64,000 nt of DNA from Escherichia phage mio. Made by a program: the position numbers and the translations under genes. Under the pieces are notes generated by a model. That model was not told the DNA's origin. It did no database searches and saw only the letters and a program-made list of their open reading frames with translations. The stretch is taken from the sequence record MN850631.1; one strand, 5' to 3'. Positions 13,230-59,726 of the stretch are shown piece by piece (position 1 is the stretch's first letter; every line of letters starts with the position of its first letter).

Positions 13230-14339
13230 TTAGATTTCACGTTTACGTTGTGAGATAAGTTCTCCAGCAGTGCCAACGATGACATGCAAAGCTTCAGTCT
13301 TGCCATCCCATTCTTTCAGCACTTTACGTTGGTTATCAACGATTGCTGCAACTTCATAACGAGACGAACGCATCTTCATATCGTTGTAATCAGTTGGAAC
13401 AGATACAACATCTCGTGGATGGACACGAACCTTCAGGATTGTATCACCTGAGAAGCAACGAACATAATCCCAAGCACCAACATGAAGACCTTGAGAGCAA
13501 GTTACGTTACGGTTATTATCAACCATCCAACGTGGCATCTCTACAATGTTACCCAAATCATTAGGTACTCTGTAGGTGTGGGAGTCAACCAGCTTGCCTT
13601 CACGAGTAGACACTTTCTTCCAACCAATGATGTAGCCTTCTTCATCAATTTCAACATCAAGGTGAGATACGAATCCCCAAAGTTGTTCTACAGAATCTTT
13701 AGATGGGTTTTCCATCAGTTTTTCGAAGAACATCACAAGGCGTTCAAAACCCTTATCTCCAGTCTTCATCATGTGAAGAATACGGTCAACAAGAGTAGAA
13801 CGCATCTCAACAGCACCGTAGAATAACTTGTCACCTTTGATTGTGATAGCACCTTGAGTGAAGTTTTCGATAGACTTACGAATATTCATCAGTTCAAAGG
13901 CTTTCTTGAACTCACCTTTCACAACATGAACTACAATCTCTTGATAGTTCGGATGAGTAGATTCAACAATTTCAGACTCTGAACCGTAAGTCATAATTAC
14001 AGAGTCACCAGTAATCATGTACTCAATCTTGTCATCTTTCTGCATAGCTTCGTGCAGTTTATTTACTGGAGCTTTCTCTACAGATTCTTTAACAACCTTT
14101 TTAACTGGCTTGTCAGCTTTCTTTTTAAAGGTCTTAGCAACTTGCTTTAAAGTCTTTGTAGCTGGTGTAGAAGTTGCCTTTTTATTCCCTTTTAAGGTTG
14201 CTTCATGACGCTCTACAGCACGACCGACTGAACGGGTTGAGGTGTTAAATTTCTGTGCAATAGCTGTTTTAGTCAGCTTGCCCTCTTTAACCAGTTTGTA
14301 AATTTCTGCGTCAATCTGTGCTTTAGTTTTAGTAGTCAT
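13230..14339 (-). CDS. rIIB: rIIB-like protein
   Basis: 369 aa with N-terminal helix-turn-helix-like region, immediately downstream of the rIIA-like gene (conserved rIIA-rIIB order). Confidence 0.6.
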   Translation of the reverse strand: MTTKTKAQIDAEIYKLVKEGKLTKTAIAQKFNTSTRSVGRAVERHEATLKGNKKATSTPATKTLKQVAKTFKKKADKPVKKVVKESVEKAPVNKLHEAMQKDDKIEYMITGDSVIMTYGSESEIVESTHPNYQEIVVHVVKGEFKKAFELMNIRKSIENFTQGAITIKGDKLFYGAVEMRSTLVDRILHMMKTGDKGFERLVMFFEKLMENPSKDSVEQLWGFVSHLDVEIDEEGYIIGWKKVSTREGKLVDSHTYRVPNDLGNIVEMPRWMVDNNRNVTCSQGLHVGAWDYVRCFSGDTILKVRVHPRDVVSVPTDYNDMKMRSSRYEVAAIVDNQRKVLKEWDGKTEALHVIVGTAGELISQRKREI

Positions 14340-14418
14340 CTTATTACTCTCTCTTGTTAGTTAATAAATCATTTTGTGAGACTATTCTAAGGGGCTTCAA
14401 AGCCCCTTGTCAAGCACT

Positions 14419-16785
14419 TTAATCGTAAACTGTTGTACCTTCTGGAACACATTTCACATTAAAGCCTAAAAACTTACTCACTTCAATAGGTGACACTTTA
14501 TTCCAATCTAAATGGGAAAGCAAGAAGTTTTCTTGTTTTCTTTTTGAAAGGTAGTTTGTCACCTTAATGACCATGCGGTCACCAGCTTTCTTAATTTTCT
14601 TGTACAGCTTTGTATCATTGTCAAGGCATTCTTTCAAAGTTTGCAATCTACTAATGGTGTAAGTGTATGCAAACGGTGCAGCAACATACTGGATTTTACC
14701 GAATATTGCCTCTACAGCCTCTTCGTTACCTTCTAGGAAGATAGTTTTGCTAGTATCTCGTGAATAGCAATAGCCACGAGAAATCTTCTTGTTATTGAAT
14801 GTAAAGTTTCTGGCAATAATCCAACTGCTTGTAAGGTCAAGAACACCATTCATGTAGATGCGTGTCATATACCTGTTATGATTAATCCAGTGAACATCAG
14901 TTAAGCTGTCGTTCAAGAGCTTCTCATCTACTTCAATCCAGTCTTCTGGTATCTTTTTCCAATTTGCTTTTCGGAAAACATAGACTGTCTTCCCTATAAC
15001 ATTAGCAACTGACTTAGCTACATCTTCTGGAGATGAGCAAAAGCATTCACCATCAACTGTGTCACCTACTGCCTTAATGTAAAGCTGAGGTTCTTCAATT
15101 GTGTCTAAGTCTTCTGATACCTCTGTGTATGAGGCTACACCTTCTGCTGGAACAGCTTTCCAGAGTTTTACAACACCCCTTACAGCTTCTTTACGCTGAT
15201 AGTGGTGTTCCTTATCAGACATCTTCACAATCTTTAACAAGCTTTTATCAAGTTTATGCAGATTGATTAAATCATCTAACTCTTTCTCAGTCGAGAATAC
15301 AAACACAATACCATTGTATCTGTGAAACAGACTTGATTCGTTGGCATAGTCTCGACATGCACCACGCAGAATCTGATTGCGGCCTACAGTCTTCTCAGTG
15401 CCATTTTTATTACGACGGTCATTAATCACGAACAAAAACTGTTCAATTTGGCTTTTACGCATTGCACCAAAGATATTGAACATACTCGCCTCTTGAGTGT
15501 AGGAAAGTGCTGTTGCACGAATCTTACTCTCTAAAGAGTTGAACTTAACATAAGCAACTGGATTGTATAGGTAGTCCACTTTAGGAATGTTGTTTCCTTT
15601 ACTGTCAACCTTAATATTACCTTTGCCGTCACGTTCATAGATGACTGAGCCATCTTCTGCGTAGATAATTCCACGACGAATGTTTAGCAATTCTTCTTCC
15701 AGAGAGTCAAGCTTAACACCTCCCCACTCTAGCTTTGGACACACAGCATTAAACATTTCTCGTGAGTTCAAACGTAACTCTGCATAAGCCTGTGCAGCAT
15801 CCATGAGTGTAGGTTGGTTATTAACTCCCTTAATAACGTCCCTTGTAATTGCTTCAGTTATCTTTTTAGTAGCCTCAATGATAACATTTTTTGTCGTATC
15901 ATTCATCTGCAATGCTTCACGAGAAGCTGCAATAGCAACTGAACCAATAGGCATGTAAATGTTTACAAGGTCTACGCTCCTACGGAAAAACTCTGGCAAG
16001 ACTTTGAAGAAATCATCACCAAGTAATGCTTCCATGTTAACAGGGTATGCAATGTTACCCATCACCACATTAAACTCTGTCCTGTTACCACTAGAACGCC
16101 AACTTTGCTTATGAATCATAGCATCATAAACACCCTCTTCACGGGCAATGACGTTCATATCTGCTAACACATCATCATATACAATATTGCTTTCTGGTTT
16201 TACAGCAAAGTATGAATATACGTGACCAGCCTCTTCAAAGAACTTTGAGATACGGTGGTCAGCAACTGCCACACGTACAGCTAAGCCATTAGGTTCATTC
16301 GTTTGGTTAGTAGTAAGCTTAGTTACTTGAGGGATACCATTCTCAAGGTAAACAGAGTACTTATTAACAACACCATCAACATAGCTAGATACTGTGAATG
16401 ACTGAGCAATTGCAAATGGGGATTTTGAGCCGATACCCATTGCACCAATGTAGTCATTAGAGTCATTCTTCGTAGAAGCCCCGTAGTTCAGATACAAACT
16501 CATTACCTTGTCGTGGGTTAAACCAGTTCCAAAATCACGGACTTCAAAGTAAGGCTCAAATCGAGTAGGTAAATGCACATGGAATGGGATGTTCTCTTTT
16601 CCAGCTTCTTTCTGAGCATCCACTGCATTACATGACAGTTCACGAATCACTGCTCGCTCTTTAAATGTGTATACACCAGAACTCAAAAGGCTGAACATTT
16701 CAGGTGTCATTGTAATCTGTGCTTGAGATGTCTCCAAAGAAGTTGAACTCTTAATCACTTCTGCGTGGTCGTTTACCATGCGCAT
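14419..16785 (-). CDS. rIIA: rIIA-like protein (GHKL ATPase-like N-terminus)
   Basis: 788 aa; N-terminal RAVIRELSCNAVDAQKEAG matches the ATPase-like box of rIIA family; AGAGGA RBS before ATG 16783-16785. Confidence 0.75.
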   Translation of the reverse strand: MRMVNDHAEVIKSSTSLETSQAQITMTPEMFSLLSSGVYTFKERAVIRELSCNAVDAQKEAGKENIPFHVHLPTRFEPYFEVRDFGTGLTHDKVMSLYLNYGASTKNDSNDYIGAMGIGSKSPFAIAQSFTVSSYVDGVVNKYSVYLENGIPQVTKLTTNQTNEPNGLAVRVAVADHRISKFFEEAGHVYSYFAVKPESNIVYDDVLADMNVIAREEGVYDAMIHKQSWRSSGNRTEFNVVMGNIAYPVNMEALLGDDFFKVLPEFFRRSVDLVNIYMPIGSVAIAASREALQMNDTTKNVIIEATKKITEAITRDVIKGVNNQPTLMDAAQAYAELRLNSREMFNAVCPKLEWGGVKLDSLEEELLNIRRGIIYAEDGSVIYERDGKGNIKVDSKGNNIPKVDYLYNPVAYVKFNSLESKIRATALSYTQEASMFNIFGAMRKSQIEQFLFVINDRRNKNGTEKTVGRNQILRGACRDYANESSLFHRYNGIVFVFSTEKELDDLINLHKLDKSLLKIVKMSDKEHHYQRKEAVRGVVKLWKAVPAEGVASYTEVSEDLDTIEEPQLYIKAVGDTVDGECFCSSPEDVAKSVANVIGKTVYVFRKANWKKIPEDWIEVDEKLLNDSLTDVHWINHNRYMTRIYMNGVLDLTSSWIIARNFTFNNKKISRGYCYSRDTSKTIFLEGNEEAVEAIFGKIQYVAAPFAYTYTISRLQTLKECLDNDTKLYKKIKKAGDRMVIKVTNYLSKRKQENFLLSHLDWNKVSPIEVSKFLGFNVKCVPEGTTVYD

Positions 16786-16814
16786 AATACTTTCCTCTTA
16801 GTTTACTGTTAAAA

Positions 16815-16991
16815 TTACTTATTAAACATTTTACCAGAACCGCCACACATAGGGCAACAACCTGCTCTTGTATAGCCTTCTCCATTACAGTAGTCACATT
16901 TTTTGTGCTCTGCAAAGTACTTGCAAAGAAGGTAAACAAATACTGCTATGCTACCAAGCGACAGTAAAATTTCTATCCAATATGCTTGCAT
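16815..16991 (-). CDS. small membrane-anchored zinc-finger protein (58 aa), not in ORF track
   Basis: Hand translation MQAYWIEILLSLGSIAVFVYLLCKYFAEHKKCDYCNGEGYTRAGCCPMCGGSGKMFNK; TM helix plus CxxC..CCPMCGG; replaces out-of-frame track ORF 16751..16939. Confidence 0.3.
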   Translation of the reverse strand: MQAYWIEILLSLGSIAVFVYLLCKYFAEHKKCDYCNGEGYTRAGCCPMCGGSGKMFNK

Positions 16992-17308
16992 GACTCACCC
17001 CTCATATTTTTGTAAAGGATAAAACTTCTGTCATGGACGATACTTGTAGACACTGCAAAGTTACTTTCAAGCATCTGTTTGTTTGGATTGTAGAAGCTTT
17101 CTTTAAACTCGTCAAGTGCAAATTGGTGATGTTGTGGAAGACCTTTTACACAGACTTTTATTGTGATTGCTGCTGCAATCTTGCCAGTCAGTTCTTCTTT
17201 AGCTGCTACTAAAATTTTGTTAAGGAACTTTTTACCATCTTCAGGTTTCTTAATGTTCTCCCAACGTTCTTCTAGGACAACGTTAATGTTCATTTCTTTG
17301 ATTTTCAT
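16973..17308 (-). CDS. hypothetical protein (111 aa)
   Basis: ATG 17306-17308 with GGAGAAGA RBS. Confidence 0.5.
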   Translation of the reverse strand: MKIKEMNINVVLEERWENIKKPEDGKKFLNKILVAAKEELTGKIAAAITIKVCVKGLPQHHQFALDEFKESFYNPNKQMLESNFAVSTSIVHDRSFILYKNMRGESCKHIG

Positions 17309-17320
17309 AATCTTCTCCAG

Positions 17321-17346
17321 AAATTAAAAAGGCTCCCGTAGGAGCC
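17321..17346 (-). terminator. putative intrinsic terminator downstream of NAMPT-like gene
   Basis: GGCTCC-CGTA-GGAGCC hairpin with T-run on the minus strand. Confidence 0.45.
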
Positions 17347-17361
17347 TCTTATCATATACTT

Positions 17362-19143
17362 TTAAAGCTGCTTGTCAATATTATTTCGAATATCACCAAG
17401 AGATGTGTAACCGTACTGCTCAGAGTCACTAAAGACTAAACGTAAAGCACAAGCTGGATGTTCAAGTGCATCTGCAAAGCTCTGGAATCCATAGCCATCT
17501 ACAGCTTTCAACTTATCACCATCCCACATAGGTGCTACACCACCAAAAGCAGACTTCTTAACACCACTATCTGTTTTAGGGTCTTTTGCAAGCATAATCT
17601 CTTTACCACCAATGCTTGCAAGAGTTGCTTTAACAGCAAATGCAAAGGTGTCACGAGTCATGTACTGGTAAGTGTAAGAGCCTACGCCAAACACTACGTT
17701 AGAGCTTGCAAAACCCATTTCATACAGACGCTTCAGGATTTCGTTTGCACGTTCCAGCGTGATAGAGTCACCATAGATAAGGCCGATATGCTCATCAAGT
17801 ACCTTAAACCCTTTAGAGTTAATAGTTCCTCCAAAGATGTTGTACAGTGTCTTAATAGCTCCATCAATTTCAGCTACAGGACGTGTTACAACGTTTGCAG
17901 AACCAACCATATAAGCATTTTTCAACATCACTGTATCAGCAACTTCAAAGTCTTCTCTGTCAACAACCATTTCGTAGCCTTCTGACAGTAGCCATCCAGC
18001 AATACCATAGTTGATGTTTTCAAGCTTCATGTTCAGAACAGCATTCAACATTGTGTCACTAGCTTCCAGCTTGCTTAGGTGCTCGTAATAAGCCTTCTTA
18101 GCACACTCTAAGTGGATTGCTTTATAACCTGTGACAATATGTACAGGGTCTCCAGAGTCAGGGCGAATTACCAGCTTACCATCCCGTTCCATAATTTCTT
18201 TACGAAGTGCTGGTAAGATTTCTGACACAGTTCTCCAGAAGTTATAAGTATCTGAAACAATACTTGCAATACCAGTTGGGTAAGTTTCTGTTAAGAAACG
18301 ACGGAAGGTTTGCAACTCACCTTTAAAGCGTCTTTCTTCTTCAATCAACTCATTACCACCTTCCCAAGCAATGTTTGCACACATTACAGAGTGCTCAGTG
18401 GCTGGTACAGAACTACCAATATCAGAGATTGGGTAAGACTGTCCATAGATTCGTTTAGCCGTATACACAGCAGGGAAGCTATCAGTTCCTTTAAAGCTGG
18501 TTAAGTGGCCTACAGCGTTAAATGCGTCATCAGTAAAGCCTGACATACCACGCATAGCAAAGTCATGGCACTGATAAGGTAAATGCAAGTCATTGTCACA
18601 AGTAAGGTCAGCCCACTTCTTACAGGTACGCTTGTAGTGTAATGCAATAGTAGCAATGGTGCAAGCTTTCCAAATCTCAGCAGAGAAAGCATCCTCCAGA
18701 TACCCTGCTACCCAATGGAAACCTGAAACAGTGTTCTGGAAGACAATCATTGGGACACGCATTGGAACAACTGTGCCTTCTTCTACAGCGTATACTTCAA
18801 CTGGTAGATAACCTAAGTCGTGAAGTGCTTCCCAATGCTCTCGACCGATAGCATCTTTACCCAGAACACCATTCATGACTTCTAAGATTTCATCAATTGC
18901 TTCTTTTTTATCACGTTCAAAGAAGGTGGCGTTCCAGTGGTCTATCAAGTAATCTTTAACAAAACGTTGAATACCGAAAGCCACTACACCATCAATTGCT
19001 AAGGGGCTGTTAAACCATTTATCACTACGTGGTGTCAGGTTGAACATCAAGTATTCTGTTGCACTAGGATACTGGTAAACATGACCAGATTTGTAAGCAT
19101 CTGCGTTTAAACCTGCTGGTACTGCATAAAGTGATTTAGTCAT
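17362..19143 (-). CDS. nadV: nicotinamide phosphoribosyltransferase family protein (NAMPT/NadV-like; possibly a Namat-type nicotinamide ADP-ribose transferase)
   Basis: 593 aa, N-terminus ...AYKSGHVYQYP... typical of NAMPT family; adjacent to Prs-like gene. Confidence 0.8.
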   Translation of the reverse strand: MTKSLYAVPAGLNADAYKSGHVYQYPSATEYLMFNLTPRSDKWFNSPLAIDGVVAFGIQRFVKDYLIDHWNATFFERDKKEAIDEILEVMNGVLGKDAIGREHWEALHDLGYLPVEVYAVEEGTVVPMRVPMIVFQNTVSGFHWVAGYLEDAFSAEIWKACTIATIALHYKRTCKKWADLTCDNDLHLPYQCHDFAMRGMSGFTDDAFNAVGHLTSFKGTDSFPAVYTAKRIYGQSYPISDIGSSVPATEHSVMCANIAWEGGNELIEEERRFKGELQTFRRFLTETYPTGIASIVSDTYNFWRTVSEILPALRKEIMERDGKLVIRPDSGDPVHIVTGYKAIHLECAKKAYYEHLSKLEASDTMLNAVLNMKLENINYGIAGWLLSEGYEMVVDREDFEVADTVMLKNAYMVGSANVVTRPVAEIDGAIKTLYNIFGGTINSKGFKVLDEHIGLIYGDSITLERANEILKRLYEMGFASSNVVFGVGSYTYQYMTRDTFAFAVKATLASIGGKEIMLAKDPKTDSGVKKSAFGGVAPMWDGDKLKAVDGYGFQSFADALEHPACALRLVFSDSEQYGYTSLGDIRNNIDKQL

Positions 19144-19188
19144 CTTTTAATCTCTCTCAAAATGGGGCTTTCAAGCCCCTATAAACTT

Positions 19189-20070
19189 TCAATCAAGGTT
19201 TGCTACAGTAACTTGACCATAATGTGTTAAGCCACGGTCTTTAGCTTCGCCTAAAGAGTTTGTAGTGTAAACATGGTCGATACCATTGTCAAGAAGGTTT
19301 TCAACACCTTTAGAGAAGATACCATGTGTTACATAGAGTTCCACACGTTTTGCACCTGCTTCACGTAGGTGTTTTGCTGCTTCTATGAAGGTTCGACCAC
19401 CATCACAGATATCATCCAAAATCATGACGGTTTTATCTGTCAAGTCAACATCATCAAGGATTCGCATACCAGTGATTTCACCAGTCTTAAGGTTGCGTAC
19501 TTTAGACATTGTGATGTATGGTTTATCCACCTCTTTAGCGGTCTCTGCAATCTTCTTAGCAGCACCTGCATCTGGGGCGACTAAGTAATCAACCAGTGGG
19601 TCATTTGCATAGTGGACTGCAATTTCCTTTTGAGGAATACTCTGGAAGCAGTTAAACAGGTTATCTGGTACATAACTGTGAGGGTCAACTGCACAGACTG
19701 CATCAAAACCCATTGCATTAACCTGTTGTGCAAACACTTTCAAAGCTGCTGCATCACCTTTAAACATGTGACGGTCGTAACGTGCATTTGGCAAATAGTA
19801 AAAGATAGCAGTCTTCATAGCAAACTTATGAGGTACTAAATCATCAATTGCTTCTTTAGCAAGTGCCACAGCAAATAATGTGTCTTTGTCATAACCCTTT
19901 ACAATCATAATCACGTTGTTGATGGATGATGCAGCATAAGCAGTAAAATCAACAAACTCTGGTGAAAAATGTCCACCAATCTCACCAGAAGGAAATTGGA
20001 CGATGTTAAACTCTTCTTCATGAGTCCCTTTAGTTGGTGAATGAACTGTAACACGGATAGATGTTTTCAT
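19189..20070 (-). CDS. ribose-phosphate pyrophosphokinase family protein (Prs-like; possibly an ADP-ribose pyrophosphokinase)
   Basis: 293 aa; PRPP-binding loop VMILDDICDGGRT; C-terminus YVTHGIFSKG. Confidence 0.8.
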   Translation of the reverse strand: MKTSIRVTVHSPTKGTHEEEFNIVQFPSGEIGGHFSPEFVDFTAYAASSINNVIMIVKGYDKDTLFAVALAKEAIDDLVPHKFAMKTAIFYYLPNARYDRHMFKGDAAALKVFAQQVNAMGFDAVCAVDPHSYVPDNLFNCFQSIPQKEIAVHYANDPLVDYLVAPDAGAAKKIAETAKEVDKPYITMSKVRNLKTGEITGMRILDDVDLTDKTVMILDDICDGGRTFIEAAKHLREAGAKRVELYVTHGIFSKGVENLLDNGIDHVYTTNSLGEAKDRGLTHYGQVTVANLD

Positions 20071-20085
20071 AGTTTTCTCTCTCTC

Positions 20086-20364
20086 TCAATCAAAAGTTAC
20101 GTTTGTTACTGCCATTGCAGATTTGCATTTTACAGGGTCTACAACGTGGTAAAGTACACTACAGTTACCTGTGCTGTCTGGTACAGGTTTTACCCATTGA
20201 TGCTTTATAGTTGGCTCTCCTAAGTCTTTGTAAGAACCATCCGTAAAGTTGTTTACCATCTCAAGTGCAATTGGTTCTGGAACATGACCACGTATCATGT
20301 ACATCTCACAACCATTACCACCTTCACTGACTAATGGTAAAATCTCCCACTTTTCTTTAGCCAT
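20086..20364 (-). CDS. hypothetical protein (92 aa)
   Basis: ATG 20362-20364. Confidence 0.5.
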   Translation of the reverse strand: MAKEKWEILPLVSEGGNGCEMYMIRGHVPEPIALEMVNNFTDGSYKDLGEPTIKHQWVKPVPDSTGNCSVLYHVVDPVKCKSAMAVTNVTFD

Positions 20365-20872
20365 TGTAAGTTGCCCTATAAACTATCTCGAACTTCAACA
20401 GGAGAGATATTGCCAAATCTGTATAGTTGTTGTCAAGCACATCTGGCATATTATTTTTGATATATTTCTCTTGTTCTTCGTAGGTCATCTTAGGGGTACT
20501 TAGGAGGCTATCTCCTTGCTTCTGGTTATCAGCTTTAGTTTGGATAAACCAGTTTGCACAGTGATGCTCACCACCCTTTGTAACAGGTTTGTGGTGGCCT
20601 AATGTAAATGTTTGCTTACCTGTATACCTGCAAAGATTGTTCAGTGTTGCAATAGTGTTCTTCACAACACACCATTCATACAGGTTATCTATTGTGTAGT
20701 GTGGGTAATAACGGACAAGTGCTCTTTCACGGTAGTTATCACGATTCCAAAGAACCATATGATTAGAATTTGAAGGGTCGTATTGGTGGGAGTCAATGAA
20801 CTCTTGACGTTCCTCAAAGCTGAGTCTTAGAACTGACATTGCAGCCGAACGTTTCAGGTTTGACAGATACAT
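20357..20872 (-). CDS. putative HNH endonuclease
   Basis: LGHHKPVTKGGEHHCANW resembles the HNH core (HH..P..KGG...N). Confidence 0.45.
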   Translation of the reverse strand: MYLSNLKRSAAMSVLRLSFEERQEFIDSHQYDPSNSNHMVLWNRDNYRERALVRYYPHYTIDNLYEWCVVKNTIATLNNLCRYTGKQTFTLGHHKPVTKGGEHHCANWFIQTKADNQKQGDSLLSTPKMTYEEQEKYIKNNMPDVLDNNYTDLAISLLLKFEIVYRATYNG

Positions 20873-22918: not shown

Positions 22919-25063
22919 TTACATAGAGACTCTATCACGAATCTCAGCAATTTTTGCATCGTTCATTCGGGATTCGCCTTTAATCTTAGTCCATCCAAGA
23001 TACCCGCACACCCTGTTAATCACAGAGATATCGTGTGAATGACAAACCTCACATTCTTCAACATCAGCCTTTGGCCTGTTACCACAATGTTCACAGATTG
23101 CTAAGTCAAAGTTAAGTCCCTGATAGAAACCTTTCAACATCCCTCTTGTAATACAACTTTTAAGTGCTGTTAAGTTTTCTGGGTTAGCTACCCTGACATA
23201 CTGGATTCTCCCACCTCTACAGATATGGAAGAATGGCTCTTCTAAGTCCTGCTTCTCAAATGGTGAGATGTCTGCTGCAACATTCATATGGAAACTGTTT
23301 GTAAAGTATTCCTTATCAGAAACACCTTTGATAACACCAAACATATCTCTGAACTGTTTTAGCTGAGTTCCGCAAAGTGATTCTGCTGGAGTACCATAGA
23401 CGGCGTATAAGAAGCCATCTTCATTTTTAAACTCTTCAGTTTTCATGTTGATGTATGCCAGAACATCGTATGCAAAACTACAGCTTCCAACTTCATGAAG
23501 TCGTTTACCTTCAGCAAGAACAGATAGCTCATCGAGCGCAGTAACACCAAAAGAAGCTGTGAAGGACTTCACGATATCCCAGCCAACCTTGTCAGTAGGT
23601 TTCTTAGTTCCTTTGTACAGACCACCTTGTGTGAATGCAAGAGGGTTAGAACTTGCTGGCATATTAGCAATCATTTCGTAGCGTTTCTTGTGGAAGCTGC
23701 GAATCATCTCTAGGTACTTATCAAGCTCTTTCCAGAAATCTAAACCATTCTCTTTAGAATACTGGTAAATCATCGGTAAGTTCAAAGATACAGCACCAAT
23801 ATTAGCACGACCAACGTAGAACTCTTCTCCATTCTCGTTAAGATATGGGGATAAGAAAGCTCTGCAACCCATCGGTGAAATTACCTTGCCAGAACGCTCA
23901 AAAGCCTCTGCTACAGCACCATGACCAGATACGCTTAAGAAATCTGGATACATTGCTTTAGAGCAACACTCAATAGCTTTACTGTACAGGTGACCTTGAC
24001 AGATATTTTCATCATGTCTCTTCTGGTCGTAGATATAAACAAGTTTAGGGAATACAACAGGTTTTTTGCTCTTACCTTGTCCATTCATACGAACATCTAG
24101 GAGAGTACTTGCAATCATGTATTGTAGTCGGTTGTCTTCATTAGACATATCTGAGTCAAGTAAACCAAATGTTAAAGTTGTGAATGCAAAATCACCACGG
24201 CTGCAAGGTACAGTATTTAGCTTCATCTCTAGTGACTGGAAGCCTTGAGTTAATTCAATCTGTAGCTGCTCCATGACATAGTTATGGTAATGTTCTTTAG
24301 GAATACCATAAGATGCTGCTTTCTCAGCATGATAGCGTAGAGACTTCTTAGCATACGGTACGAGTACCTTGTCAATCTCTGCTAAAGTAAAGCCACCAAA
24401 TTGCTGTGCAGTTGCTGAAAGAACTACGTCACCAATAACCTGTAAGGCCGACAGTACAGATTTTGGTTCACAATATTCGATGCCAGACATTTCAAAGCCA
24501 CCTTTCAGGACTTTACCAATGTCAAACAGGCAACAGTTGATACCACCAAAAATTAGGTCTCTTAAGTCATGGATGTAGATAAACCCTTTTTCAATGTCTT
24601 CAAGTTCCTCTGGTGTTAAATGGTACTGTTTAAAGATTTCTTTAGTCAGATAACCACGAATAATTGAACCTTTTGTAGAAATTAAACTGCTGTCAAAGTT
24701 AGCATTTTCACGGTCACCTAAGAAGAGTGTGTCTTTAGTCTTTTGGTAAAGCTCATCCCAATTTTGAGCAACCTCTTTACGGTAATTTCTGTATGTTGAG
24801 TAAGACTCATAAATCTCGTGATTAACTTCTGCCAAAGCACCCTCAACAATACTGTGAATATCATTTACTGAAATGAGTAAATTATTCTGCTTAGTGGATT
24901 TTACCAGAATCCTCATAAATGCTGACTCAAGAGCTTGGGTAACATCTGGTGGAAGTTCTTTATATCCAACCCTGTTAGCTGATTTAGTTACTGCTGCTAA
25001 AACTTTTTTGATATCAGGTTCTTCAAGTGAGCCGTTCTTTTTAATAATCTGTACTTTGTTCAT
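22919..25063 (-). CDS. nrdD: anaerobic ribonucleoside-triphosphate reductase
   Basis: 714 aa; C-terminal glycyl-radical motif RVCGYLG and zinc-site cysteines. Confidence 0.9.
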   Translation of the reverse strand: MNKVQIIKKNGSLEEPDIKKVLAAVTKSANRVGYKELPPDVTQALESAFMRILVKSTKQNNLLISVNDIHSIVEGALAEVNHEIYESYSTYRNYRKEVAQNWDELYQKTKDTLFLGDRENANFDSSLISTKGSIIRGYLTKEIFKQYHLTPEELEDIEKGFIYIHDLRDLIFGGINCCLFDIGKVLKGGFEMSGIEYCEPKSVLSALQVIGDVVLSATAQQFGGFTLAEIDKVLVPYAKKSLRYHAEKAASYGIPKEHYHNYVMEQLQIELTQGFQSLEMKLNTVPCSRGDFAFTTLTFGLLDSDMSNEDNRLQYMIASTLLDVRMNGQGKSKKPVVFPKLVYIYDQKRHDENICQGHLYSKAIECCSKAMYPDFLSVSGHGAVAEAFERSGKVISPMGCRAFLSPYLNENGEEFYVGRANIGAVSLNLPMIYQYSKENGLDFWKELDKYLEMIRSFHKKRYEMIANMPASSNPLAFTQGGLYKGTKKPTDKVGWDIVKSFTASFGVTALDELSVLAEGKRLHEVGSCSFAYDVLAYINMKTEEFKNEDGFLYAVYGTPAESLCGTQLKQFRDMFGVIKGVSDKEYFTNSFHMNVAADISPFEKQDLEEPFFHICRGGRIQYVRVANPENLTALKSCITRGMLKGFYQGLNFDLAICEHCGNRPKADVEECEVCHSHDISVINRVCGYLGWTKIKGESRMNDAKIAEIRDRVSM

Positions 25064-51707: not shown

Positions 51708-59726
<8,019 letters not shown>

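What the first reader, a model, noticed from the sequence alone, without database searches (positions are those of the whole stretch)
17362..20070. Adjacent Prs-like and NAMPT-like genes: candidate two-enzyme NAD+ reconstitution (counter-defence) module
A PRPP-synthetase-family gene (19189-20070, VMILDDICDGGRT loop) sits directly upstream of a NAMPT-family gene (17362-19143) on the same strand, 45 bp apart, with a terminator after the pair. No NMN adenylyltransferase gene is visible in this window, which a classical PRPP -> NMN -> NAD+ route would need. A described phage pathway uses Prs and NAMPT homologs (ADP-ribose pyrophosphokinase plus nicotinamide ADP-ribose transferase) to rebuild NAD+ from ADP-ribose and nicotinamide, countering NAD+-depleting immunity such as Thoeris, DSR, SIR2 or SEFIR systems. 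Both genes share the TGAGAGAGA upstream motif class.
Basis: partly seen in the sequence, partly recalled or inferred. Interest (0 to 1): 0.8.

Follow-up and report, generated by a model that had tools for sequence, protein, structure and literature searches.

The report
Known phage NAD+ rebuilding gene pair (NARP1)
These two adjacent genes are the already characterised phage pathway NARP1, which rebuilds NAD+ from the fragments left by bacterial NAD+-destroying immune systems; the pathway was discovered in a close relative of this phage, so the reading is correct but not new.

Summary
Two minus-strand ORFs lie exactly at 19189-20070 (293 aa, Prs family) and 17362-19143 (593 aa, Nampt family). 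They are 45 nt apart and are followed by a strong intrinsic terminator. The window is a Felix O1-like phage (Felixounavirus), colinear with phage Bas63 (JohannRWettstein, MZ501086). NARP1 (Adps + Namat) was discovered in Bas63, as genes 79-80. The window proteins are 98% (Namat) and 80% (Adps) identical to Bas63 gp80 and gp79, with the same gene lengths, spacer, hairpin and terminator. The Namat-like protein has the published Namat signature (GSYTYQYMTRD), the Bas63-type clamp loop (K42-W43) and every catalytic-core residue. The Adps-like protein keeps all Prs pyrophosphoryl-transfer motifs but fails every canonical Prs equivalog cut-off. No NMN adenylyltransferase is encoded in the window or in the complete Bas63 genome. 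TGAGAGAGA is a general ribosome-binding-site-like element, not specific to this pair. Two side observations are not covered in the papers I read. The Adps N-terminal region exists in two deeply diverged allele classes in this genus, and the window carries the class that has not been tested. Namat also carries a lineage-specific ~85-aa insertion.

The parts
19189..20070 (-). adps: ADP-ribose pyrophosphokinase (ADPR-PP synthetase), a Prs-family enzyme of 293 aa
   Evidence: ORF. Pfam PF14572/PF00156. 80% aa identity over the full length to Bas63 gp79. The motifs FPSGE, RYDR, DPH(131)S, APDAGA, flexible-loop K190 and DDICDGGRT are conserved with E. coli and Sulfolobus Prs and with FADO Adps. It passes only the TIGR01251 subfamily cut-off and fails every Prs equivalog cut-off, for example 105 vs 296 bits.
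17362..19143 (-). namat: nicotinamide ADP-ribose transferase, a Nampt-family enzyme of 593 aa
   Evidence: ORF. 98% identity (584/593) to Bas63 gp80. The best solved-structure match is SpbetaL1 Namat 9w5w/9w5x at 428 bits, against 177 bits for Xcc Nampt and about 140 bits for human NAMPT. The SCH signature G488-S-Y490-T-Y-Q-Y494-M-T-R-D498 is present. The SCL loop has K42-W43 as in Bas63. Core residues D15, Y17, F195, R198, D221, A248, H251, R327, D329 and G458-D459 are conserved.
17863..18126 (-). Lineage-specific ~88-aa insertion inside Namat (aa ~340-427), absent from SpbetaL1 and FADO Namat
   Evidence: The HMMER alignment to 9w5w splits into two stretches, query 5-343 and 428-554. There is a gap against FADO Namat in alignment A2. 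No Pfam domain matches. tblastn finds the segment only in 253 Felix O1-like records.
20076..20088 (-). Purine-rich RBS-like element (TGAGAGAGAGAGA) 5 nt upstream of the adps ATG. Its TGA is the stop codon of the upstream 92-aa gene.
   Evidence: Sequence, motif search, context.
19151..19159 (-). RBS-like element TGAGAGAGA 7 nt upstream of the namat ATG
19164..19179 (-). Intergenic hairpin GGGGCT-TGAA-AGCCCC followed by ATTTT, between adps and namat. Its role is unverified; it could be a weak attenuator or an RNA-stability element.
   Evidence: Sequence. It is identical in Bas63 and folds at -11.5 to -13.9 kcal/mol. The terminator scan did not call it because it has only 4 T.
17317..17350 (-). 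Intrinsic terminator closing the gene pair
   Evidence: 10-bp stem, 5 GC pairs, T-rich tail. It is identical in Bas63 at -17.2 kcal/mol.

Best explanation
The pair is NARP1 (NAD+ reconstitution pathway 1) of a Felix O1-like phage. NAD+-depleting defence systems with SIR2, TIR or SEFIR effectors (SIR2-HerA, type I Thoeris, DSR1/2, SEFIR) cleave NAD+ into ADP-ribose and nicotinamide. Adps (19189-20070) then uses ATP to pyrophosphorylate the terminal ribose C1'' of ADPR, giving ADPR-pyrophosphate. Namat (17362-19143) displaces that pyrophosphate with nicotinamide, using Nampt-type chemistry, and regenerates NAD+ directly. An adenine-binding selectivity clamp (SCL K42/W43 plus SCH Y490/Y494) favours ADPR-PP over PRPP. 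No NMN intermediate and no NMNAT are needed. What is shown elsewhere: genetics and metabolomics in Bas63, and biochemistry and structures with the SpbetaL1 enzymes. What is shown here: orthology, synteny, the signature motifs and the absence of an NMNAT. What is inferred: that the window's own enzymes, including its untested Adps N-terminal allele, have the same activities.
For: The genus and synteny match Bas63. Gene lengths (882 and 1782 nt) and the 45-nt spacer are identical. Identity to gp80 and gp79 is 98% and 80%. In Bas63, deleting genes 79-80 sensitises the phage to SIR2-HerA, abolishes NAD+ recovery and abolishes ADPR-PP (m/z 720.010). [quoted passage not shown] Independent single knockouts of g79 and g80 reduce plating efficiency 1e4-1e6-fold on Sir2-HerA, and complementation restores it. 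[quoted passage not shown] Xcc Nampt has GGALLQKVDRD instead. The SCL rule 'Lys followed by a stacking residue, e.g. Bas63' is met by K42-W43. The catalytic core is conserved, including the R306 equivalent R327. The Adps catalytic motifs are conserved, including the flexible-loop lysine K190. No NMNAT is encoded.
Against: No enzyme from this exact phage has been assayed. Bas63 Adps itself could not be purified, so the in vitro chemistry comes from the SpbetaL1 homologues. The window's Adps differs from the tested Bas63 allele by 20% overall and by 43% in aa 1-60. Namat can also make NMN from PRPP in vitro when ADPR-PP is absent, so some classical activity is not excluded.
Confidence: 0.93

Rival explanations
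1. Classical salvage, as the GenBank annotations say. The Prs-like enzyme makes PRPP from ribose-5-phosphate, the Nampt-like enzyme makes NMN, and host NadR or PncC/NadD finishes NAD+ synthesis. This would serve general metabolic boosting rather than counter-defence.
For: Pfam and NCBIfam assign Prs and Nampt/NAPRTase families, and the 593-aa protein passes the NF006629 equivalog cut-off. Hundreds of records annotate the genes this way. Namat retains NMN-forming activity on PRPP in vitro.
Against: [quoted passage not shown] The SpbetaL1 Adps gave no measurable product in the Prs-type control reaction but made ADPR-PP from ADPR + ATP. With both substrates offered, Namat made only NAD+. The window protein carries the adenine clamp motif that Nampt lacks. 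The Prs-like protein scores far below every Prs equivalog cut-off.
Confidence: 0.04
2. The window's divergent Adps allele (N-terminal ~110 aa at 57-80% identity to Bas63) has changed or lost function. It might use a different ADPR-related substrate or be regulated differently, so the pair would not behave as Bas63 NARP1 does.
For: There is a sharp mosaic drop to 57-70% nt identity starting at the adps start codon. The allele distribution in the genus is bimodal. Only the other allele class (Bas63) has been tested.
Against: All catalytic and substrate-loop motifs are invariant between the two alleles, and also in FADO Adps at 27% identity, which works in vivo. The window-type allele is the commoner one (152 of ~250 records) and is an intact ORF in all of them. 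The C-terminal catalytic half is 96% identical.
Confidence: 0.03

Closest known systems
NARP1 of Escherichia phage Bas63 / JohannRWettstein (genes 79-80; Osterman et al., bioRxiv 10.1101/2024.02.11.579819, published in Nature 2024 to my knowledge)
   Same: Same genus, gene order, gene lengths, 45-nt spacer, intergenic hairpin and terminator. Namat is 98% identical and Adps 80% identical. The flanking genes match too (gp76-78, gp82-85 at 82-99%).
   Different: The Adps N-terminal region belongs to the other allele class (aa 1-60 at 57% identity). The 114-aa gene bas63_0081 just downstream of Namat is absent from the window.
NARP1 of Bacillus phages SpbetaL1 (biochemistry; Namat crystal structures 9w5w/9w5x, PMC12774641) and FADO (deletion phenotype)
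   Same: A two-gene adps-namat operon. The Namat catalytic core and SCH motif are shared (GSFTYQYNTRD vs GSYTYQYMTRD), as are the Adps Prs-type motifs.
   Different: The window Namat is about 100 aa longer, with an ~88-aa insertion at aa 340-427 and a ~15-aa insertion at aa 257-275. Its SCL loop is 4 residues longer and uses K42/W43 in place of R40. Identity to FADO is 27% for Adps and 49% for Namat.
NARP2 of Vibrio phage KVP40 (Nampt NadV plus bifunctional NMNAT)
   Same: It uses a Nampt-family enzyme to restore NAD+ during infection.
   Different: NARP2 needs an NMNAT and uses PRPP. No NMNAT homologue exists in the window or in the Bas63 genome, and a Prs-family Adps is present instead.
NARP1-AP (Adps, Macro-domain phosphatase Adpp and Namat; Vibrio phage Gary) and RyDEP-extended NARP1 (mycobacteriophage DyoEdafos)
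   Same: The core Adps and Namat genes.
   Different: No third gene lies between or beside the pair. The neighbouring ORFs have no Macro or RyR-type Pfam match. By inference, this phage should remain sensitive to aRES, which produces ADPR-1''-phosphate.
Cellular Prs (class I ribose-phosphate diphosphokinase) plus Nampt salvage
   Same: The fold families and the catalytic motifs for pyrophosphoryl transfer and for nicotinamide-ribosyl coupling.
   Different: The substrates are ADPR and ADPR-PP rather than R5P and PRPP (literature). Adps is only 27% identical to E. coli Prs and falls below the equivalog cut-offs. Namat has the adenine clamp.

Membership tests
NARP1 (Adps + Namat) | An Adps-clade Prs homologue with a Namat homologue in the immediate vicinity (97% of Adps-clade genes), typically as a two-gene operon | tested here: met
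   The genes are on the same strand, 45 nt apart, and end in a shared terminator.
NARP1 (Adps + Namat) | Orthology to the genetically validated Bas63 gp79/gp80 | tested here: met
   80% and 98% full-length identity with no gaps, in a syntenic context.
NARP1 (Adps + Namat) | [quoted passage not shown] | tested here: met
   GSYTYQYMTRD at aa 488-498, with Y490 and Y494. Xcc Nampt has GGALLQKVDRD at the aligned position.
NARP1 (Adps + Namat) | Namat SCL loop supplying an adenine-stacking residue: Arg, or Lys/Tyr followed by the stacking residue | tested here: met
   TPRSDK42W43F, identical to Bas63 Namat, which the paper cites as the Lys-type example. Stacking itself was not modelled here.
NARP1 (Adps + Namat) | Intact Nampt-like catalytic core in Namat (SpbetaL1 F189, R192, D215, catalytic His, R306, D308) | tested here: met
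   F195, R198, D221, H251, R327 and D329 align with them.
NARP1 (Adps + Namat) | Adps active site of Prs type, including the lysine whose mutation (K162A in SpbetaL1) abolishes activity | tested here: inconclusive
   K190 aligns with the Prs flexible-loop lysine in 4twb and with a Lys in FADO Adps. All other Prs motifs are conserved. I did not have the SpbetaL1 Adps sequence to confirm that K162 is this position.
NARP1 (Adps + Namat) | Enzymatic activities: ADPR + ATP gives ADPR-PP, and ADPR-PP + nicotinamide gives NAD+ | not testable with these tools
   Shown for the SpbetaL1 enzymes and, by metabolomics, in Bas63-infected cells.
NARP1 (Adps + Namat) | Counter-defence phenotype against NAD+-depleting systems | not testable with these tools
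   Shown for Bas63 by operon deletion and by single-gene knockouts with complementation.
NARP2 (Nampt + NMNAT) | A phage-encoded NMN adenylyltransferase | tested here: not met
   phmmer with NadR, NadD and the KVP40 NMNAT seeds gives a best E of about 1-2 in the window and the full Bas63 genome. The control gives 4e-15.
NARP1-AP | A Macro-domain ADPR-1''-phosphate phosphatase (Adpp) in the operon | tested here: not met
   No ORF lies between the genes. The flanking ORFs 20086-20364, 20357-20872 and 16973-17308 have no Macro match in Pfam.
Canonical ribose-phosphate diphosphokinase (Prs) | Score above the NCBIfam Prs equivalog cut-offs | tested here: not met
   The best equivalog, NF002095, scores 105 bits against a cut-off of 296. 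Only the broad TIGR01251 subfamily model is passed, at 123 vs 113 bits.
Canonical Nampt/NadV | Nampt-family fold and core, with the PRPP-specific (non-adenine-binding) SCH-equivalent region | tested here: not met
   The family models are passed, but the SCH region is of Namat type and not of Nampt type.

The most novel reading that the evidence does not exclude
The Adps N-terminal ~110 residues occur as two deeply diverged allele classes in Felix O1-like phages that are otherwise about 92-98% identical. The recombination breakpoint lies at the adps start codon. This dimorphism might reflect an arms race, for example escape from a host factor that recognises or inhibits Adps, or a difference in regulation or oligomerisation. 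The window carries the class that has never been tested. Similarly, the fast-evolving, lineage-specific ~88-aa insertion that follows the active-site strand of Namat might add a function, such as a lid, Adps docking or regulation, that the characterised SpbetaL1 enzyme lacks.
Probability: 0.08. Interest if true: 0.45.

Novelty: already known. Interest (0 to 1): 0.12.

Why it matters
NARP1 lets a phage defeat many unrelated NAD+-depleting immune systems at once, including SIR2-HerA, type I Thoeris, DSR1/2 and SEFIR. That bears on the host range and therapeutic use of Felix O1-like phages. For this window, the practical value is annotation. The genes labelled 'ribose-phosphate pyrophosphokinase' and 'nicotinamide/nicotinate phosphoribosyltransferase' in hundreds of Felixounavirus records, and by current NCBIfam models, should read Adps and Namat. 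Nothing new about the mechanism follows from this window.

Tried and rejected
1. I looked for an NMNAT, which would indicate NARP2 or a classical route. Three seeds against all six-frame segments of the window and the whole Bas63 genome found nothing.
2. I looked for extended NARP1 variants with a Macro/Adpp phosphatase or RyDEP. Pfam matches none in the adjacent ORFs, and no third gene lies in the operon.
3. I considered TGAGAGAGA as a regulatory motif specific to the pair and rejected it. All five exact copies lie 5-9 nt upstream of start codons of unrelated genes, so it is RBS-like.
4. I looked for dedicated Adps or Namat models in NCBIfam release 20. There are none, only generic Prs and NAPRTase names.
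5. I tried to identify PDB entry 9ke8, the second-best structural relative, whose motif is GAQTYQRNTRD. A literature search found nothing, so its nature (Namat or Nampt) is unresolved.
6. I ran Pfam on the Namat insertion alone. The only hit was a non-significant DUF4528 match at E=0.054.
7. I did not run structure prediction or the large homologue searches. With 98% and 80% identity to the validated proteins the question was already settled, and the tool returns no coordinates for judging how close the insertion is to the ligand.
Full report
OBSERVATION. The ORF list shows two minus-strand ORFs at exactly the reported coordinates: 19189-20070 (293 aa) and 17362-19143 (593 aa). They are separated by 45 nt. 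Pfam assigns the first to the phosphoribosyl-synthetase/PRT families (PF14572, PF00156) and the second to NAPRTase/NAMPT_N (PF04095, PF18127). The quoted loop VMILDDICDGGRT is present. A strong terminator-like hairpin lies at 17350-17327, 12 nt after the second stop codon. TGAGAGAGA lies 5-7 nt upstream of both start codons.

WHAT THE WINDOW IS. Megablast of 17000-20400 finds 258 phage records. Of these, 230 cover at least 80% of the query, and nearly all are Felix O1-like E. coli, Salmonella, Shigella or Citrobacter phages. The best match is 96.5% identical. The whole window is colinear, in reverse orientation, with positions 72503-7207 of Escherichia phage JohannRWettstein (Bas63, MZ501086, genus Felixounavirus) at 89-97% nucleotide identity.

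WHAT IS ALREADY KNOWN. Osterman et al. (bioRxiv 10.1101/2024.02.11.579819) discovered NARP1 by noticing this two-gene operon in four BASEL phages and deleting genes 79-80 of Bas63.
- The deletion mutant lost the ability to plate on SIR2-HerA cells and to restore NAD+.
- ADPR-pyrophosphate (m/z 720.010) appeared only when both the operon and the defence system were present.
- The effect did not depend on host pncC or nadR, which rules out an NMN route.
- The purified SpbetaL1 homologues showed Adps activity (ADPR + ATP gives ADPR-PP) and Namat activity (ADPR-PP + nicotinamide gives NAD+, preferred over PRPP).
- NARP1 also cancelled type I Thoeris, DSR1, DSR2 and SEFIR. It was found in 859 phage genomes (4.3%).
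An independent knockout screen in Bas63 (10.1101/2024.10.10.617714) found that deleting g79 or g80 alone reduces plating efficiency on Sir2-HerA by 1e4-1e6-fold, and complementation rescues it. [quoted passage not shown]

DIRECT COMPARISON. Bas63 genes 79 and 80 are 882 and 1782 nt long and 45 nt apart, which is identical to the window.
- The 593-aa protein is 98% identical (584/593) to gp80.
- The 293-aa protein is 80% identical (233/293) to gp79, with no gaps.
- The intergenic hairpin GGGGCTTGAAAGCCCC and the terminator are identical in both phages.

NAMAT RESIDUES. Against solved structures, the 593-aa protein matches SpbetaL1 Namat (9w5w/9w5x) at 428 bits. It matches Xcc Nampt at 177 bits and human NAMPT at about 140 bits. 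The residue mapping from SpbetaL1 to the window, taken from those alignments, is:
- D13 to D15
- Y15 to Y17
- F189 to F195
- R192 to R198
- D215 to D221
- A242 to A248
- catalytic His to H251
- R306 to R327
- D308 to D329
- G360-D361 to G458-D459
- F392 to Y490
- Y396 to Y494
- T398-R399-D400 to T496-R497-D498
The SCH motif reads GSYTYQYMTRD in the window and GSFTYQYNTRD in SpbetaL1. Xcc Nampt has GGALLQKVDRD at the same position. SpbetaL1 R40 aligns with K42, which is followed by W43. The paper states that when Lys occupies this position the next residue does the stacking, and gives Bas63 as the example. The window is identical to Bas63 in this region.

ADPS RESIDUES. Alignment with Bas63 gp79, FADO Adps (validated by deletion) and E. 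coli Prs shows invariant FxxGE, RxDR, H131, PDxG, DD and G-T motif positions. HMMER aligns K190 with the Prs flexible-loop lysine. NCBIfam has no Adps or Namat models. The Prs-like protein passes only the broad TIGR01251 subfamily model and fails every Prs equivalog cut-off, for example 105 vs 296 bits. The Namat protein passes a generic 'nicotinate phosphoribosyltransferase' equivalog. This explains the misleading names in public records.

NMNAT AND ACCESSORY GENES. phmmer with E. coli NadR, NadD and the KVP40 NMNAT found nothing better than E of about 1. The search covered all stop-to-stop segments of at least 40 aa in the window and in the complete 87.1-kb Bas63 genome. The positive control scored 4e-15. 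No Macro-domain (Adpp, NARP1-AP) or RyDEP gene accompanies the pair. This is the two-gene core pathway, and by inference it should not rescue the phage from aRES.

MECHANISM. Shown elsewhere and inferred here by orthology: defence NADases produce ADPR and nicotinamide. Adps transfers pyrophosphate from ATP to ADPR. Namat couples ADPR-PP with nicotinamide to give NAD+. Confidence is 0.93. The residual doubt is that no protein from this phage, and none from its Adps allele class, has been assayed.

TGAGAGAGA is enriched (5 exact copies vs 0.96 expected). All five copies lie 5-9 nt upstream of ATG codons of different genes on the coding strand. It is a ribosome-binding-site-like element and not a motif that links the two genes.

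SIDE OBSERVATIONS.
1. Adps mosaic. Nucleotide identity to Bas63 drops from ~97% to 57-70% at the adps start codon (window ~20070-19750). It recovers to 87-92% by ~19600 and to 93-100% across most of namat.
2. Adps allele classes. Across phage records the N-terminal 110 aa are bimodal: 152 records at 90% identity or above, 2 at 80-90%, and 97 at 60-80%, the last group including Felix O1 and Bas63. The C-terminal 113 aa are unimodal and conserved. The window carries the commoner allele class, which has not been tested.
3. Namat insertion. Felixounavirus Namat has an ~88-aa insertion (aa 340-427) right after the RPDSGDP active-site strand. It is absent from SpbetaL1 and FADO Namat and has no Pfam match. 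It is detectable only in Felix O1-like phages. It is 41-49% identical in Sf13-type phages; a related phage, SUSP2, has a whole Namat ~75% identical. The structural paper's text does not mention an insertion.
4. Counter-defence neighbourhood. The Bas63 homologues of the window's neighbours gp77 (20357-20872, 91% identical) and rIIA/rIIB (14419-16785 and 13230-14339) were reported as counter-defence genes against the Ec67 retron and QatABCD.

VERDICT. The system is already known, since this genus is where it was discovered. Interest is therefore low.

Noticed in passing
window 19741-20070 (-), first ~110 codons of adps: There is a sharp mosaic. Nucleotide identity to Bas63 falls from ~97% to 57-70% starting at the adps start codon. 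Across ~250 Felix O1-like phages this region is bimodal (152 records at >=90%, 2 at 80-90%, 97 at 60-80%), while the C-terminal catalytic half is uniformly conserved. The window carries the allele class not tested in Bas63.
   Followed up: partly
window 17863-18126 (-), Namat aa ~340-427; also aa ~257-275: A lineage-specific ~88-aa insertion, plus a ~15-aa one, is present in Felixounavirus Namat relative to the crystallised SpbetaL1 enzyme and to FADO. It has no Pfam domain and is found only in Felix O1-like phages. It is only 41-49% identical in Sf13-type phages. The text of the structural paper does not mention an insertion.
   Followed up: partly
window 13230-20872 (-): This is a counter-defence neighbourhood. 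Homologues of Bas63 gp77 (20357-20872, 91% identical; reported counter to the Ec67 retron), NARP1, and rIIA/rIIB (14419-16785 at 98%, 13230-14339 at 82%; reported counters to QatABCD) lie in one co-oriented block. The PhageMaP preprint calls gp77 GIY-YIG. Here Pfam gave only a sub-threshold DUF7167 hit, and PHROGs gave a weak HNH-endonuclease similarity (E=1.8e-6).
   Followed up: partly
window 17378-17327, 20941-20890, 25138-25087 (all -): Sigma-70-like promoter hexamers (TTGACA-16-TATGAT, 11/12, at 17378-17351) end 0-4 nt before a terminator hairpin. A transcript from such a promoter would therefore start inside the hairpin's 5' arm. There are three such junctions, against 0-1 in 20 shuffles. 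This may be a terminate-and-reinitiate arrangement between gene blocks.
   Followed up: partly
window 19164-19179 (-): A conserved GC hairpin (GGGGCT-TGAA-AGCCCC followed by ATTTT) lies between adps and namat. A promoter-like site (TTGACA-17-TACACT) lies at 19292-19264 inside the adps 3' end. Together they could allow differential expression of the two genes.
   Followed up: no
window 22919-25063 (-), NrdD; L002 631-3517 in Bas63: The window's anaerobic ribonucleotide reductase gene is one intact 714-aa ORF. In Bas63 the nrdD gene is annotated as two joined pieces interrupted by a homing-endonuclease gene (bas63_0068). The ~740-bp Bas63 segment 47827-48569 has no counterpart in the window.
   Followed up: partly
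window ~17306-17309 junction; Bas63 55508-55852: The 114-aa hypothetical gene bas63_0081, immediately downstream of Namat in Bas63, is absent from the window. This is a presence/absence polymorphism next to NARP1.
   Followed up: no
window 19151, 20080, 21511, 30837, 37574 (-): TGAGAGAGA is a recurrent RBS-like element: 5 exact copies vs 0.96 expected, all 5-9 nt upstream of an ATG. It differs from the canonical AGGAGG Shine-Dalgarno sequence.
   Followed up: yes
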